This document shows positions 12,654 through 15,266 of a stretch of 64,000 bases of DNA, piece after piece. The notes below the pieces were generated by a model. The model did no database searches, was not told the origin of the DNA, and worked only from the letters and a program-made list of their open reading frames with translations. This DNA is from Pseudomonas sp. (GTDB lineage Bacteria; Pseudomonadota; Gammaproteobacteria; Pseudomonadales; Pseudomonadaceae). How positions within the stretch are numbered: position 1 is the stretch's first letter; each line of letters starts with the position of its first letter. The DNA is taken from contig JAVXRI010000010.1 in assembly GCA_036643775.1 (NCBI GenBank), positions 4,752 through 68,751 on the forward strand, read 5' to 3'. A program made the position numbers and the translations under genes.

Positions 12654-13372
12654 GCCTGCTACCGCATAACGCCACGCCTCTGGAGCAAGCCCTGGAGGCT
12701 GCCTGTGACCTGGGCATCGACCCGCAGATTATCCGCGGCGTGGCCGATTCGCAGCGCTGTCCGGCGAACTTCCTGCCCTGGCTGGCCTGGGCCATGAAAG
12801 TCGATGGCTGGGAGGCTGCCGACACCGAGGAGCAACAACGCGAGCTGATCCGCGAGGCGATCCCGATACATCAGACCAAGGGCACGGTAGGTGCGGTGCG
12901 CCGGGTGCTCAAGGCGGTGCGGGTCAATGCGGACTTCAAGGAGTGGCAGCAGATTCCGGGAGCGGTGCCGTACTCGTTCCAGTTGACTGCCTGGGCCAAC
13001 AACAACCGGCCCGGCGAGGGTTCGATCATCTCGCCGCAGCTGTACGCCCGGCTGCGCGCGCTGGTCGATGCCGCAAAGAACCAACGCAGCCATTACGACT
13101 TTCGCCTGGGGGCCGGCTTTGATGGCGGCTTTCGCCTGGGCAACGCTGCCCGAATGCGCGCCGTGCAGCGCCAGTCGATGGAGGCCGAGGCGGTGCCGGT
13201 TGACCCGGCTGTCCAGGGCCTGCAGTTGGCCAATGCCTCAAACCTGCGCGCGGTGATTCGACGTTCCGTCGAGGCGCTGGGCATTCCGATCAACGCTGAA
13301 CAGGGCCTGCAGGTTGCCAATGCGACCCGGGCCCGCATTGTCGTGCGCGGCACGATGGAGGCTGTTTTATGA
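12650..13372 (+). CDS. Baseplate wedge/tail protein I (P2 gpI family) with repeat-extended C-terminus
   Basis: SLLPHNATPLEQAL, CPANFLPWLAW, KGTVGAVRRVL. Confidence 0.88.
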   Translation: MSLLPHNATPLEQALEAACDLGIDPQIIRGVADSQRCPANFLPWLAWAMKVDGWEAADTEEQQRELIREAIPIHQTKGTVGAVRRVLKAVRVNADFKEWQQIPGAVPYSFQLTAWANNNRPGEGSIISPQLYARLRALVDAAKNQRSHYDFRLGAGFDGGFRLGNAARMRAVQRQSMEAEAVPVDPAVQGLQLANASNLRAVIRRSVEALGIPINAEQGLQVANATRARIVVRGTMEAVL

Positions 13373-14055
13373 GTATCCCGTTACAACCTGTGATTACCAA
13401 AGCCGGTTTGGCCGCGATCTGGCGGGCCGACAAAACCGGCCTGGCCGCGGAGATTACCCATATCGTCCTCGGCACCTCGGGCTATACGCCGAACGCGGAC
13501 CAGAAAAGCCTGATCGCGCAAACCGCCAGATACCCGATTTCCGGTGGCGAGCGCCTGGGCAACACACAAATTCACCTGACCGCTGTCGCCGATGGTGACC
13601 GGGCGTTCTGGGTGCGCGAAATCGGCTTTCTGCTGAGTGACGGCACGCTGCTGGCGGTGTGGTCGCATTCGACCGAGGCACTGGCCTACAAACCTGCCGG
13701 TACCGATCTGCTGCTGGCCTACGACCTGTCACTGGCTGCATTGCCGGCCAACAGCGTCACCATCGTCAGCGGTGCCGCCGGGCTCAATCTGACCTTGGCG
13801 GCGCCGCTCGCGGCCCAGGCCTCGGCATTGATCGCCGAACAGCTGCGCAGCATGCAGCAGCAGGACCGGCTGGACGATCACGATAAGCGCCACCAGATCG
13901 AGGGCGAGCAGATCGCCAACTTGCTGGGGCGCATGAAGGCCGTCGAGCAACGCCAGACCAATAACCATGACGGCCTGCTCAGTGCGGCAGTCAGCAACGC
14001 GGCGGCGGTGATCGCCCTGCAAACCCTTGTTGTTCAACATATCCATGGAGCATAA
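13369..14055 (+). CDS. Tail-fibre attachment (collar) protein with coiled-coil C-terminus
   Basis: ITKAGLAA, ITHIVLG, WVREIGFLLSDGTLLAV typical of fibre N-terminal collar domains; only 228 aa. Confidence 0.8.
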   Translation: MSIPLQPVITKAGLAAIWRADKTGLAAEITHIVLGTSGYTPNADQKSLIAQTARYPISGGERLGNTQIHLTAVADGDRAFWVREIGFLLSDGTLLAVWSHSTEALAYKPAGTDLLLAYDLSLAALPANSVTIVSGAAGLNLTLAAPLAAQASALIAEQLRSMQQQDRLDDHDKRHQIEGEQIANLLGRMKAVEQRQTNNHDGLLSAAVSNAAAVIALQTLVVQHIHGA

Positions 14056-14060
14056 GACCG

Positions 14061-14795
14061 ATGAGTCTTGAGACTGATGTCGCCAACCTGGTGACGAAAA
14101 CTACTGATTTGATTGCGTACTTCAACGGCAAAAAGGCGGGCATTGACGCGGCGGTCGCGGCGGCTGTGGCGGCTGTGCCGCTCATGGAACGCATCTGGTA
14201 CGTAAACCAGTTGAGCGGTGATGACAGCGCCGCCGGCACACTCAATGCCCCACTCAAAACCATCGACAAGGCGGCAAGTAATACACCGGCGGGCGGTGTG
14301 TGTGTGGTGCGATTGCAGACTGATTATGTTCATTCGACAGCGCTTGTTTCTGCGCTTCGGGTGCTCAACATCTTGAGTGATGTTGTTGGAACGAAGCGAA
14401 AGCTTTCGTTGGTCTATCGAAGTGACGGGGAGTTCCCTTATCTCTCTGGTTTTGGCCTGCCAACCTGGGGGGCGATTGGCTTAAAGGATATTCAGTTGGT
14501 GTACCCGAGCCCAGCCGGAATGAACCCGGCCCCCGTGGGATCGGCGAATGCCATGTTAAAAATTTATAGCGCGAACGTTTCCAGCATCATCGCCTTGAAG
14601 CTTGACGCTTGCGATGTTCAGGCCCCTGCCGATTTTTCCGGCTGCATGATGCCAGCCAATGGCAATGCGATAGCTTTTGAGTCTATTGCAACCAGTTACC
14701 CAACCGGCTGGGCAGGTCGCTATATCTCGGGTGTCGCCGCTGGCACCGACACCAAAACACTGTCCAACGTTATGACCAACCTGGCCACCCTCTAA
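14061..14795 (+). CDS. Putative receptor-binding fibre head
   Basis: Helical N-terminus, then WYVNQLSGDDSAAGTLNAPLKTIDKA, a lead-in motif typical of beta-helix proteins; between collar and chaperone; visibly less GC-rich than neighbours. Confidence 0.6.
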   Translation: MSLETDVANLVTKTTDLIAYFNGKKAGIDAAVAAAVAAVPLMERIWYVNQLSGDDSAAGTLNAPLKTIDKAASNTPAGGVCVVRLQTDYVHSTALVSALRVLNILSDVVGTKRKLSLVYRSDGEFPYLSGFGLPTWGAIGLKDIQLVYPSPAGMNPAPVGSANAMLKIYSANVSSIIALKLDACDVQAPADFSGCMMPANGNAIAFESIATSYPTGWAGRYISGVAAGTDTKTLSNVMTNLATL

Positions 14796-14804
14796 GGAAT
14801 CGCC

Positions 14805-15266
14805 ATGCAAAAGCAGAACCTGTCTATCGCCTACGGCGAAACCCTGTACACCGGGTTTAGTTTTGAGGGCCTTCCCTTGCCAGCTGCCTTGATGGTTGCG
14901 AGTCAGCAAATCGATCAAGTGGCCGACCAAGCCCGCGCCGCTGTCATTGGCGATCCTCTGCGCGCGGTCGAGTATCAACTGGCCGAGCAAGAAGCCAAAG
15001 CCTTCGCTGCGGCTGGTTTTGGAGGCGATACGCCGCCGACGGTGCAGGCCTGGGTCGATGCGGCCGGGCTGGAGCCGCGCGCGGCTGCTGAGAGCATTCT
15101 GGCCGAGGCAGAAGCCTGGCAGGGTGCGCTGTACGCCATTCGGGCCGCGCGCCTGAAAGGCAAGCAAGCGGTACTCAAGGCGACCAGTCATGAACAGGCC
15201 GAGGGCTTCGCCGATACCGCCATTGATGCCATCCGTGCCAGCGTGGTTGGCGTCGGCAACGCCTGA
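14805..15266 (+). CDS. Putative tail-fibre assembly chaperone
   Basis: 153 aa, Ala-rich helical, IDQVADQARAAVIGDPLRAVEY motif; chaperone position between fibre and sheath. Confidence 0.6.
   Translation: MQKQNLSIAYGETLYTGFSFEGLPLPAALMVASQQIDQVADQARAAVIGDPLRAVEYQLAEQEAKAFAAAGFGGDTPPTVQAWVDAAGLEPRAAAESILAEAEAWQGALYAIRAARLKGKQAVLKATSHEQAEGFADTAIDAIRASVVGVGNA

What the first reader, a model, noticed from the sequence alone, without database searches (positions are those of the whole stretch)
13369..15266. Tail fibre split into a short adaptor, a separate head and a chaperone
Seen: instead of one long fibre gene there are a 228-aa protein (collar domain then a coiled-coil-like tail), a 244-aa protein starting with a helical segment (SLETDVANLVTKTTDLIAYF...AAVAAAVAAV), and a 153-aa helical protein; 5- and 9-bp gaps suggest coupling. 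Established: R2 pyocin uses a single ~690-aa fibre plus chaperone. Inference: a short two-piece fibre whose head docks via coiled coils, making target range exchangeable as one small gene, which is useful for engineering.
Basis: partly seen in the sequence, partly recalled or inferred. Interest (0 to 1): 0.7.

Follow-up and report, generated by a model that had tools for sequence, protein, structure and literature searches.

The report
Two-piece tailocin fibre with swappable head
This Pseudomonas phage-tail weapon (tailocin) has no single long tail fibre; it encodes a short baseplate anchor, a separate small beta-helix receptor-binding head and a helper protein, a layout named in 2015 as the "short fibre" type but never explained, and natural chimeras show the head is exchanged as a roughly 0.7-kb cassette.

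Summary
Three tightly packed ORFs of 228, 244 and 153 aa lie between baseplate gene I and the sheath of an R-type tailocin in the mutS-recA locus.

- **Chassis:** it is R-pyocin-like (sheath 74%, tube 69% identity).
- **228-aa protein:** a short "a-type" DUF3751 fibre (Ghequire 2015, their "Rp2a") with a helical tail.
- **244-aa protein:** a 35-residue N-terminal helix followed by a small right-handed beta-helix (AF2 pLDDT 92, tailspike-like fold hits).
- **153-aa protein:** related to the tail-fibre-assembly-like ORF25 of Ralstonia phage RSA1.
- **Conservation:** the split is kept in all 14 related loci I read and in Vibrio phages VPHZ6 and VP882. The N-helix motif occurs only at the extreme N-terminus of small proteins, so this is not a broken gene.
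- **Modules:** the head's N-helix co-varies with the adaptor's C-end. The head body co-varies with the first ~25 residues of the chaperone.
- **Breakpoints:** about 14179 and about 14890. The natural swap unit is therefore head residues 41-244 plus the chaperone N-terminus, not the whole gene 14061-14795.

Physical docking, trimer state, presence in particles and receptor were not tested. This is a new member of a known but uncharacterised class. Interest is moderate.

The parts
12650..13372 (+). Baseplate protein gpI (240 aa), upstream neighbour. Its stop overlaps the adaptor start.
   Evidence: Pfam PF09684 Tail_P2_I, E 6e-40.
13369..13788 (+). Adaptor, N-terminal DUF3751 / tail-collar domain (residues 1-140): the presumed baseplate anchor.
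   Evidence: PF12571 at residues 5-110. phrog_3737 E 1.8e-68. 59% identity to Vibrio phage VPHZ6 orf13. Mean 74% identity among 11 loci.
13789..14055 (+). Adaptor helical tail (residues 141-228): a stalk (about 147-197), a turn (NNHDG) and a hydrophobic terminal helix (203-225). This is the proposed socket for the head.
   Evidence: It extends about 50 aa beyond the 174-183-aa a-type fibres of phages and Rp3a. A 60-aa internal duplication lengthens it in L006 (score 54 against shuffles 31 +/- 5.8). Its C-end co-varies with the head N-helix. Helical or coiled-coil character is inferred from sequence only.
14061..14180 (+). Head, conserved N-terminal helix (residues 1-40): the proposed docking plug.
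   Evidence: AF2 helix at residues 3-37. 57-97% identical to the window copy across loci, while the head body is 23-61%. A profile of this segment finds 92 clusters, always at residues 1-42 of small proteins. The same motif heads VPHZ6 orf14, VP882 gp25 and the Rp3a downstream proteins.
14181..14795 (+). Head, small right-handed beta-helix (residues 41-244): the proposed receptor-binding domain. It is hypervariable and lower in GC.
   Evidence: AF2 pLDDT 91.9. Foldseek hits to GH136, rhamnogalacturonan lyase, PL6 lyases, CBA120 tailspikes and phage RBPs. DUF1565-like cap motif. Body mean identity 31%. GC 54% and GC3 60% against 62-66% and 68-80% in the neighbouring genes. Identity to relatives drops sharply at about 14179.
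14805..14888 (+). Chaperone N-terminal variable beta-hairpin (residues 1 to about 28), which co-varies with the head body.
   Evidence: AF2 strands at 6-10 and 13-18. Partial Mantel of head body against chaperone N-terminus given the chaperone core: r 0.49, p about 2e-4. Against L007 this segment is 53% identical, while the rest of the chaperone is 90%.
14889..15266 (+). Chaperone conserved helical core (residues about 29-153).
   Evidence: phrog_8983 E 8e-44. 48% identity to the C-terminal part of Ralstonia phage RSA1 ORF25, annotated 'tail fiber assembly-like protein', which sits right after that phage's fibre gene. AF2 pLDDT 94.6, five helices, no significant PDB fold match.
15289..15305 (+). 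Terminator-like GC hairpin with a T-run, closing the fibre block before the sheath gene (15330-16496).

Best explanation
The three genes encode a two-piece receptor-binding fibre and its assembly helper, on an R-pyocin-like tailocin.

(1) The 228-aa protein is a short 'a-type' DUF3751 fibre. Its N-domain anchors it, presumably as a trimer, in the gpI/gpJ baseplate wedge. Its C-terminal ~85 residues form a helical stalk that ends in a hydrophobic helix.

(2) The 244-aa protein is the real specificity determinant. A conserved 40-residue N-terminal helix plugs onto the adaptor's C-end. The rest is a small right-handed beta-helix, a mini-tailspike, that binds a surface polysaccharide of the target cell, most likely LPS O-antigen as in other Pseudomonas tailocins.

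(3) The 153-aa helical protein is a dedicated fibre-assembly chaperone. Its variable N-terminal beta-hairpin is matched to the head body, and its conserved core is generic.

Specificity evolves by swapping a cassette that runs from head codon ~41 to chaperone codon ~25-30.

What is shown: gene order and conservation, domain identities, predicted folds, variability pattern, recombination breakpoints and co-variation. What is inferred: trimeric state, physical docking, presence in particles, the chaperone role and the receptor.
For: Context: a single R-tailocin cluster between mutS and recA, with prtR-like repressor, holin, V, W, J, I, sheath, tube, TMP, U and D. Sheath is 74% and tube 69% identical to a P. 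aeruginosa R-pyocin record. That record has a 702-aa fibre and 146-aa chaperone where this cluster has 228 + 244 + 153 aa.

Adaptor: PF12571 and phrog_3737. It aligns with the a-type fibres of VP882, VPHZ6 and Rp3a but carries a ~50-aa helical extension.

Head: AF2 pLDDT 91.9, helix 3-37 followed by a beta-helix. Fold hits are to polysaccharide-active beta-helices and phage tailspikes or fibres.

No other RBP candidate exists in this cluster.

Conservation of the split: 14 loci all show separate A (228 or 288 aa), H (243-254 aa) and C (151-154 aa) ORFs. In 301 genomes of the genus, the full-length 228-type adaptor and the head family occur together in the same 7 genomes; two further genomes have only the head's N-terminal ~90 residues on a 294-aa protein. 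The N-helix profile hits 92 clusters, always at residues 1-42 of 199-315-aa proteins and never internal to a long fibre. Two distant contexts have a PF12571 short protein upstream.

Modularity (91 locus pairs): H N-helix against A C-end r 0.72, partial r 0.56 given A N-domain and gpI, p about 4e-4. H N-helix against H body r 0.04. H body against chaperone N-terminus partial r 0.49, p about 2e-4.

Natural chimera, window against L007: A 85-97%, H 1-40 93%, H 41-215 21-38%, C 1-30 53%, C 31-153 90%, with a sharp break at about 14179.

Other points: the same trio sits on an unrelated Rp3-like chassis in L051, where sheath identity is 24%. Head GC is about 8 points below its neighbours. Chaperone: RSA1 ORF25 homology and position.
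Against: There is no direct evidence that the two proteins touch. The co-varying segments are adjacent on the DNA, so a shared recombination tract could explain the correlation without any contact.

Its helical or coiled-coil nature rests on sequence pattern and on the L006 duplication.

The head was modelled as a monomer only. No proteomics covers an a-type particle: Carim 2021 (PMC8319346) analysed Pse04, Pse05, Pse06 and Pse11, and the two whose Rp3 fibre genes I read in Table S2 (Pse04, Pse06) have long fibres, while the a-type strain Pse03 was not analysed.

The chaperone has no Pfam or NCBIfam hit and no PDB fold match, so its role rests on synteny and one annotated phage homologue. In one distant context (L060) an N-helix head follows an 858-aa protein rather than a DUF3751 protein.
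Confidence: 0.66

Rival explanations
1. The 244-aa beta-helix protein is a structural receptor-binding protein, but it attaches directly to the baseplate (gpI/gpJ or the adaptor's N-domain) as an independent tailspike. The 228-aa protein would then be a separate short stub or trigger fibre rather than its carrier.
For: Nothing shows contact between the adaptor C-end and the head N-helix. One N-helix head lies after an 858-aa non-DUF3751 protein. In VP882-like layouts three extra small proteins lie between the short fibre and the head.
Against: The head N-helix tracks the adaptor C-end better than it tracks gpI: r 0.72 against 0.41, with partial r 0.56 after removing gpI and the adaptor N-domain. 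Adaptor and head family co-occur one to one in the genomes searched. The whole trio moves together onto another chassis whose gpI is only 40% identical.
Confidence: 0.14
2. The 153-aa protein is not, or not only, a transient chaperone. It stays on the fibre as a distal structural or receptor-contacting component, as some tail-fibre assembly proteins do.
For: Its N-terminal hairpin co-varies with the head body, which fits a permanent partner as well as a chaperone. It has a confident, compact fold of its own. It is unrelated to the R-pyocin chaperone.
Against: Its homologue in phage RSA1 occupies the classical assembly-protein slot after the fibre gene and is annotated accordingly. Its core is far more conserved than the head (65% against 31%), which is unusual for a receptor-contacting tip.
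Confidence: 0.12
3. The 244-aa protein is not part of the particle at all. It would be, for example, a soluble polysaccharide-active enzyme or a cargo gene, and the tailocin would carry only stub fibres.
For: It has no family annotation. The beta-helix fold is shared with many soluble carbohydrate enzymes.
Against: It lies inside the structural operon between the fibre and chaperone genes, with 5-nt and 9-nt gaps and no promoter. The same arrangement exists in true phages. Its N-terminal 40 residues are conserved independently of the body. No acidic residue is invariant in the beta-helix body beyond the cap motif (G53, D55, G59): D88 is only nearly invariant in the close family and is not kept in the wider family. 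Without it the particle has no receptor-binding domain.
Confidence: 0.06
4. The split is an artefact: a frameshift or nonsense mutation or a sequencing error in what was once a single fibre gene.
For: None beyond the short 5-nt gap.
Against: The same stop, gap and ATG layout with a Shine-Dalgarno motif is present in 14 independent loci and in phages. The N-helix motif was never found internal to a long protein among 1.84 billion representatives.
Confidence: 0.02

Closest known systems
'a-type' short DUF3751 tail fibres of Pseudomonas R-tailocins (Rp2a/Rp3a; Ghequire et al. 2015, PMC4684702) and of Hapunavirus-like phages VP882, phiHAP-1 and VPHZ6
   Same: A short PF12571 protein lies directly after gpI. 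It is followed by small unannotated ORF(s) and a small chaperone-like gene before the sheath. The cluster sits in the mutS-cinA/recA locus with a PrtR-like repressor. The downstream protein starts with the same MSLE...L..VNGK-type helix, and VPHZ6 orf14 also continues into a DUF1565-like beta-helix start.
   Different: This adaptor is 228 aa, with a ~50-aa longer helical tail than the 174-183-aa forms. The chassis is R-pyocin-like rather than Hapunavirus/Rp3-like. The chaperone belongs to the RSA1 ORF25 family, not the ~85-110-aa ...WPE.P... type of Rp3a and VPHZ6. The main text of the 2015 paper classifies the short fibre but does not say what carries specificity.
R2 pyocin fibre PRF15 with chaperone PRF16 (P. 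aeruginosa)
   Same: Homologous chassis: sheath 74%, tube 69%, W 67%, D 56% identity. Both fibres start with a DUF3751 anchor (31-33% identity over residues ~24-110). In both, a chaperone gene follows the fibre and precedes the sheath.
   Different: The R pyocin has one ~700-aa polypeptide with the receptor-binding domain at its C-terminus. Here anchor and receptor-binding domain are separate polypeptides. The head is a beta-helix rather than the R2 fibre's lectin-fold tip (title and abstract of PMC6363177). The chaperones are unrelated.
Anchor plus conserved-peptide docking of a second RBP in Klebsiella phages K11 and KP32, and engineered R2-anchor-tailspike fusions (PMC11762384)
   Same: A beta-helix tailspike-type RBP attaches through a short conserved N-terminal peptide to a carrier protein that is itself anchored to the tail. 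Engineered R2 tailocins show that a DUF3751 anchor can carry foreign tailspike domains.
   Different: In K11 and KP32 the carrier is itself a full RBP with a T4gp10-like branching domain. Here the carrier has no RBD, and no such domain was detected. Those are podoviruses, and homology of the docking elements is not shown.
Localized Rbp plus chaperone recombination in the P. syringae Rp4 tailocin (Baltrus et al. 2019, as summarised in PMC10598620)
   Same: Target range changes through recombination of the receptor-binding protein together with its chaperone. Here the divergent tract likewise spans the head body and the chaperone N-terminus.
   Different: Rp4 is a Mu/SfV-like tailocin with a single-polypeptide fibre. 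Here the tract begins inside the second fibre polypeptide, just after its docking helix.

Membership tests
a-type short DUF3751 tail fibre (Ghequire 2015) | N-terminal DUF3751 / PF12571 domain | tested here: met
   PF12571 E 9e-9, 35.9 bits against a cutoff of 23, residues 5-110.
a-type short DUF3751 tail fibre (Ghequire 2015) | Protein consists essentially of the DUF3751 domain, with no long C-terminal receptor-binding region | tested here: met
   228 aa, against 567-998 aa for the b and c types. It aligns end to end with the 174-183-aa a-type proteins apart from a ~50-aa helical extension.
a-type short DUF3751 tail fibre (Ghequire 2015) | Encoded directly after gpI in an R-tailocin or myophage tail cluster | tested here: met
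Rp2 tailocin clade (P. putida BW11M1 type) | Tube and sheath cluster with BW11M1 rather than with Rp1 (P. aeruginosa) or Rp3 (SF4c / Hapunavirus-like) | tested here: inconclusive
   Rp3 is excluded: tube 31% and sheath 30% identity to VPHZ6, 24-26% to the Rp3-like L051. Tube 69% and sheath 74% identity to a P. aeruginosa R-pyocin record place the chassis in the Rp1/Rp2 major clade. No BWW11M1-type reference sequence was available: BW11M1 itself was not compared.
Rp2 tailocin clade (P. putida BW11M1 type) | mutS-cinA/recA integration site, PrtR-like regulator and pyocin-type holin (shared by Rp2 and Rp3, unlike Rp1) | tested here: met
   mutS 5175-8159 (-), S24/HTH repressor 7902-8645, holin PF16085 9082-9468, recA 23526-24635. 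Criterion from PMC4684702.
Right-handed parallel beta-helix receptor-binding protein (tailspike-like) | Beta-helix fold | tested here: met
   AF2 pLDDT 91.9, pTM 0.83. Foldseek probability 1.0 to GH136, rhamnogalacturonan lyase and PL6, plus hits to CBA120 TSP1 and phage 7-7-1 fibres. BFVD top hit E 1e-7, TM 0.58. This is a prediction, not an experiment.
Right-handed parallel beta-helix receptor-binding protein (tailspike-like) | Homotrimer attached to the virion or particle | not testable with these tools
   Only single-chain prediction was available.
Right-handed parallel beta-helix receptor-binding protein (tailspike-like) | Catalytic acidic residues for depolymerase activity | tested here: inconclusive
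   Among 44 homologues the only invariant acidic residue past the N-helix is D55, in the cap motif. D88 is nearly invariant but is not kept in the wider N-helix family. This gives no support for catalysis, but binding against cleavage cannot be decided from sequence.
Tail fibre assembly protein / chaperone | Homology to a recognised assembly-protein family | tested here: inconclusive
   No Pfam or NCBIfam hit. phrog_8983 (function unknown) E 8e-44. phrog_8258 'tail fiber assembly protein' only E 0.0044. 48% identity over residues 33-150 to RSA1 ORF25, annotated 'tail fiber assembly-like'.
Tail fibre assembly protein / chaperone | Gene immediately downstream of the receptor-binding gene and co-evolving with it | tested here: met
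   9-nt gap. The same order in 14 loci. The N-terminal 25 residues co-vary with the head body, partial r 0.49, p about 2e-4.
Tail fibre assembly protein / chaperone | Required for folding or assembly of the RBP | not testable with these tools
   Needs co-expression or deletion experiments.
Anchor / conserved-peptide branched RBP system (K11, KP32 type) | Second RBP carries a conserved N-terminal docking peptide | tested here: met
   Residues 1-40 are conserved (mean 67%, 18 of 42 columns invariant in 8 loci) independently of the body.
Anchor / conserved-peptide branched RBP system (K11, KP32 type) | First RBP carries a T4gp10-like branching domain | tested here: not met
   PF12571 is the only Pfam domain in the 228-aa protein. 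The system therefore works like this family but is not a member.

The most novel reading that the evidence does not exclude
The adaptor C-end and the head N-helix form a standard plug-and-socket interface shared by Rp2a and Rp3a tailocins and by Hapunavirus-like phages. Small beta-helix (or other) heads, each with a chaperone whose N-terminal hairpin is matched to it, would then be exchanged freely between unrelated contractile-tail chassis. That would make a cassette of about 0.7 kb sufficient to retarget a tailocin without touching the anchor.
Probability: 0.45. Interest if true: 0.6.

Novelty: new member of a known kind. Interest (0 to 1): 0.45.

Why it matters
Tailocins are being developed as narrow-spectrum antibacterials and microbiome-editing tools. 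Today, retargeting means building fusion proteins on the R2 fibre anchor (PMC11762384). A natural system with anchor and receptor-binding head on separate polypeptides would be a simpler engineering scaffold, because its junctions are already mapped by natural chimeras (head codon ~41, chaperone codon ~25-30).

It would also explain what carries specificity in the 'a-type' tailocins, which make up about half of the Rp3 tailocins surveyed in 2015 (17 strains against 16 with b-type fibres). Their short fibre has no receptor-binding region of its own. Finally, it assigns a probable function to a family of about 250-290-aa 'hypothetical' or 'DUF1565' proteins.

Tried and rejected
- **Alignment scan of genome contigs:** A 10-sequence alignment returned only 7 loci.
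- **Solved-structure searches:** P0001, an adaptor profile and a chaperone profile found nothing meaningful. The head profile gave only weak cap-motif hits.
- **Chaperone fold search:** Foldseek of the chaperone model against the PDB returned only generic helical bundles, E >= 0.2.
- **Published proteomics:** I looked in Carim 2021 for evidence that a head protein is in particles. The samples analysed were Pse04, Pse05, Pse06 and Pse11. The two whose Rp3 fibre genes I read in Table S2 (Pse04, Pse06) have long fibres, and the a-type strain Pse03 was not analysed.
- **Supplement of Ghequire 2015:** Table S3 is not held, so the listed a-type strains could not be checked.
- **Fused adaptor-head chain:** I considered using a custom quadruplet code to force a single-chain AF2 job. 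I rejected it because it is contrived, a monomeric fusion cannot model a trimeric junction, and the tool returns no contact or PAE data.
- **Heptad scoring of the adaptor tail:** the result was crude and not decisive.
- **Frameshift or pseudogene reading:** rejected.
- **Rp3 membership of the chassis:** rejected.
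Full report
**1. What is there**

Window 7.9-22.9 kb is one R-type tailocin cluster. It lies between mutS (5175-8159, minus strand) and recA (23526-24635). The genes are:
- an S24/HTH PrtR-like repressor (7902-8645) and a pyocin-type holin (9082-9468);
- V (10719-11279), W (11350-11676), J (to 12653) and I (12650-13372);
- the three genes of the finding;
- sheath (15330-16496), tube (16513-17022), tape measure (17475-19718), U and D, and an Rz-like lysis gene.

There is a 4-nt overlap with gpI, then gaps of 5 and 9 nt, each second and third gene with a Shine-Dalgarno-like motif. 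No promoter-like site lies inside the block. A 7-bp all-GC terminator-like hairpin follows at 15289-15305.

**2. The chassis and the comparison with R pyocin**

The chassis is R-pyocin-like. Identity to a P. aeruginosa R-pyocin record (OQ658366.1) is sheath 74%, tube 69%, W 67%, E 59% and D 56%. At the same position that record carries one 702-aa fibre and a 146-aa chaperone.

The mosaic boundary lies at the wedge and fibre genes. J is 43% identical, gpI 31-33%, and the fibre N-domain 31-33%. The adaptor N-domain is instead 59% identical to orf13 of Vibrio phage VPHZ6, whose tube is only 31% identical.

In the terms of Ghequire et al. 2015 (PMC4684702), the chassis belongs to the Rp1/Rp2 major clade. 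It sits in the Rp2/Rp3-type locus and carries an "a-type" short fibre, which is their "Rp2a". A P. vranovensis protein, from the species they name as the potential Rp2a producer, is a 67%-identical homologue of the 153-aa protein.

**3. The three proteins**

Adaptor (228 aa):
- It has PF12571 at residues 5-110 and matches phrog_3737 "tail fiber protein" across nearly its whole length.
- It aligns with the 174-183-aa a-type proteins of VP882, VPHZ6 and the Rp3a clusters, but extends ~50 residues further.
- By sequence, the tail reads as a ~50-residue helix, a turn (NNHDG) and a 23-residue hydrophobic helix. This is inference.
- In P. cremoricolorata (L006) the stalk is 60 residues longer through an internal duplication: score 54 against shuffles 31 +/- 5.8, maximum 52 of 500. 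That is the behaviour expected of a spacer rod.

Head (244 aa):
- It has no Pfam hit. There are 86 homologues, nearly all 235-256 aa, almost all from Pseudomonas, named "hypothetical" or "DUF1565".
- AF2 with a 44-sequence alignment gives pLDDT 91.9 and pTM 0.83. The model has a helix at residues 3-37, then a beta-rich domain.
- Foldseek places that domain among right-handed beta-helices: GH136 lacto-N-biosidases, rhamnogalacturonan lyase, PL6 lyases, CBA120 tailspikes, phage 7-7-1 fibres, and phage RBP-like models in BFVD.
- So it is a mini-tailspike, not a helical protein.
- No acidic residue is invariant in the body, so binding rather than cleavage is the more economical reading. This is not settled.

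Third protein (153 aa):
- It matches phrog_8983, function unknown, at E 8e-44.
- It is 48% identical to the C-terminal part of Ralstonia phage RSA1 ORF25, annotated "tail fiber assembly-like", which sits right after that phage's fibre gene.
- AF2 gives pLDDT 94.6: an N-terminal beta-hairpin (strands 6-10 and 13-18) and five helices.
- It has no significant PDB fold match and is unrelated to the R-pyocin chaperone.

**4. The split is conserved**

- Fourteen loci from different Pseudomonas species all show separate ORFs of 228 (or 288), 243-254 and 151-154 aa in this order.
- Among 301 genomes of the genus, the head family occurs in 8. In 7 of these, including the window's own, the hit covers the full length, and the full-length 228-type adaptor occurs in the same 7. 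The other two carry only the N-terminal ~90 residues on a 294-aa protein.
- About 22 further genomes have the ~176-183-aa Rp3a form.
- A profile of head residues 1-42, searched against 1.84 billion representative proteins, finds 92 clusters. Apart from two repetitive proteins, the motif is always at the extreme N-terminus of a 199-315-aa protein (shorter hits appear to be fragments) and never inside a long fibre. Most sampled members continue into the DUF1565-like beta-helix start.
- In two distant metagenomic contexts a 176-190-aa PF12571 protein lies upstream. In one, an 858-aa protein does.
- True phages have the same layout. VPHZ6 has orf13 (182 aa, DUF3751), orf14 (286 aa, MSLESEV... helix then beta-helix start) and orf15 (chaperone). 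VP882 has gp21 ... gp25 (MMSIEEQLSNAV...).
- The Rp3a clusters of the genus also place a protein with an MSLETTIASLV...VNGK N-terminus after the short fibre.

**5. Modules and natural swaps**

Mean pairwise identity among 11 loci:

| Segment | Mean identity |
|---|---|
| gpI | 73% |
| Adaptor N-domain | 74% |
| Adaptor stalk | 55% |
| Adaptor C-end | 53% |
| Head N-helix | 67% |
| Head body (residues 91-215) | 31% |
| Chaperone residues 1-30 | 58% |
| Chaperone rest | 65% |

Correlations across 91 locus pairs:
- The head N-helix tracks the adaptor C-end (r 0.72). The partial Mantel r is 0.56 after removing gpI and the adaptor N-domain, p about 4e-4.
- The head N-helix does not track the head body (r 0.04).
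- The head body tracks the chaperone N-terminus: partial r 0.49 given the chaperone core, p about 2e-4.

The clearest natural chimera is window against L007 (P. caricapapayae):

| Segment | Identity |
|---|---|
| Adaptor | 85-97% |
| Head 1-40 | 93% |
| Head 41-215 | 21-38% |
| Chaperone 1-30 | 53% |
| Chaperone 31-153 | 90% |

- At nucleotide level, identity falls from 76-100% to 40-66% at about 14179 in three independent comparisons. Against L007 it recovers at about 14890-14920.
- The converse case is L009 against L015: the head body is 83% identical, but the adaptor tail and head N-helix are only 62-65%.
- Two strains carry paralogous clusters that differ mainly in head and chaperone.
- The head gene has GC 54.7% and GC3 62%, against 62-66% and 68-80% in its neighbours.
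- In Pseudomonas sp. yb_9 (L051) the same trio (60%, 62% and 69% identity) sits on an Rp3-like chassis with sheath identity of 24%.

**6. Reading**

The most economical model is a two-piece fibre: a DUF3751 anchor with a helical stalk, a head that plugs in through its N-terminal helix and presents a small beta-helix to the target's surface polysaccharide, and a chaperone whose N-terminal hairpin is matched to the head.

The receptor is inferred to be O-antigen. This is by analogy with other Pseudomonas tailocins (PMC8319346) and with the fold.

The main weakness is that every co-varying pair of segments is adjacent on the DNA. The statistics are therefore consistent with physical contact but do not prove it. 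No multimer model, proteomics or EM was available.

**7.

- The two-piece idea is supported.
- Docking through coiled coils is untested.
- "Exchangeable as one small gene" should be amended. The natural unit is about 14180-14890: the head without its docking helix, plus the first ~25-30 codons of the chaperone.

**8. Novelty**

The short a-type fibre class was defined in 2015, and the phage relatives have the same layout, so this is a new member of a known kind.

I did not find the following described in the papers I could search:
- the explanation that a separate N-helix / beta-helix protein is the specificity determinant of a-type tailocins;
- the module boundaries.

The library is incomplete, and the 2015 supplement was not available.

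The nearest functional analogues are:
- the anchor / conserved-peptide RBP systems of Klebsiella phages and engineered R2-anchor fusions;
- Rbp-plus-chaperone recombination in P. syringae tailocins.

Noticed in passing
L055 7380-15797 (CP087197.1); also L005, L007, L053, L054: One tailocin chassis (single V, W, sheath, tube, TMP, U, X, D) carries two wedge-fibre sets in tandem before the sheath. The first is J-I-adaptor(228)-head(245)-chaperone(153). The second is J'(293)-I'(201) plus a long 567-647-aa DUF3751 fibre. This could give two particle types or mixed baseplates from one chassis. The window itself has only the first set.
   Followed up: partly
L003 vs L004 (P. putida 31753); L012 vs L018 (G224): Two strains each hold two paralogous copies of this cluster type. 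In L003 against L004 the baseplate genes and the adaptor N-terminal part are 88-100% identical at nucleotide level, but the head body falls to 43-57% and the chaperone to 60-70%. In L012 against L018 the divergence is milder and also covers the adaptor tail and head N-helix (72-79% protein identity, against 94-97% for gpI and the adaptor N-domain).
   Followed up: partly
L006 3128-3994 (P. cremoricolorata DSM 17059): The adaptor is 288 aa instead of 228 aa, through a 60-residue internal duplication of the helical stalk. This implies natural variation in fibre length.
   Followed up: yes
L051 2307-4208 (Pseudomonas sp. yb_9): The closest relative of the window's head (62% identity) and of the chaperone N-terminus (80%) sits on an Rp3/Hapunavirus-like chassis (sheath 24%, tube 26% identity). 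The trio therefore moves between unrelated tailocin lineages.
   Followed up: yes
window 14061-14795: The head gene has GC 54.7% and GC3 62%, about 8 and 6-18 points below the flanking structural genes, consistent with repeated horizontal replacement.
   Followed up: yes
window 19728-20573: The gpU homologue is 281 aa. The GpU domain (PF06995) covers only residues 159-276, behind an N-terminal extension with a weak DUF7217 hit. The R-pyocin record has a similarly long gene, annotated there as an 'XRE family transcriptional regulator'.
   Followed up: no
window 9478-10068 and 10105-10722: Two ORFs (196 and 205 aa) between the holin and the spike gene V have no Pfam hit. In L055 the corresponding stretch holds different genes, including a 2OG-Fe(II) oxygenase-domain protein.
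   Followed up: no
L001 4514-6626 (VP882 gp22-gp25); L059 1937-4141: In VP882-like layouts, three extra small proteins lie between the short DUF3751 fibre and the N-helix head. One of them is annotated as a tail fibre and has its own helical N-terminus. This suggests fibres built from more than two pieces.
   Followed up: no
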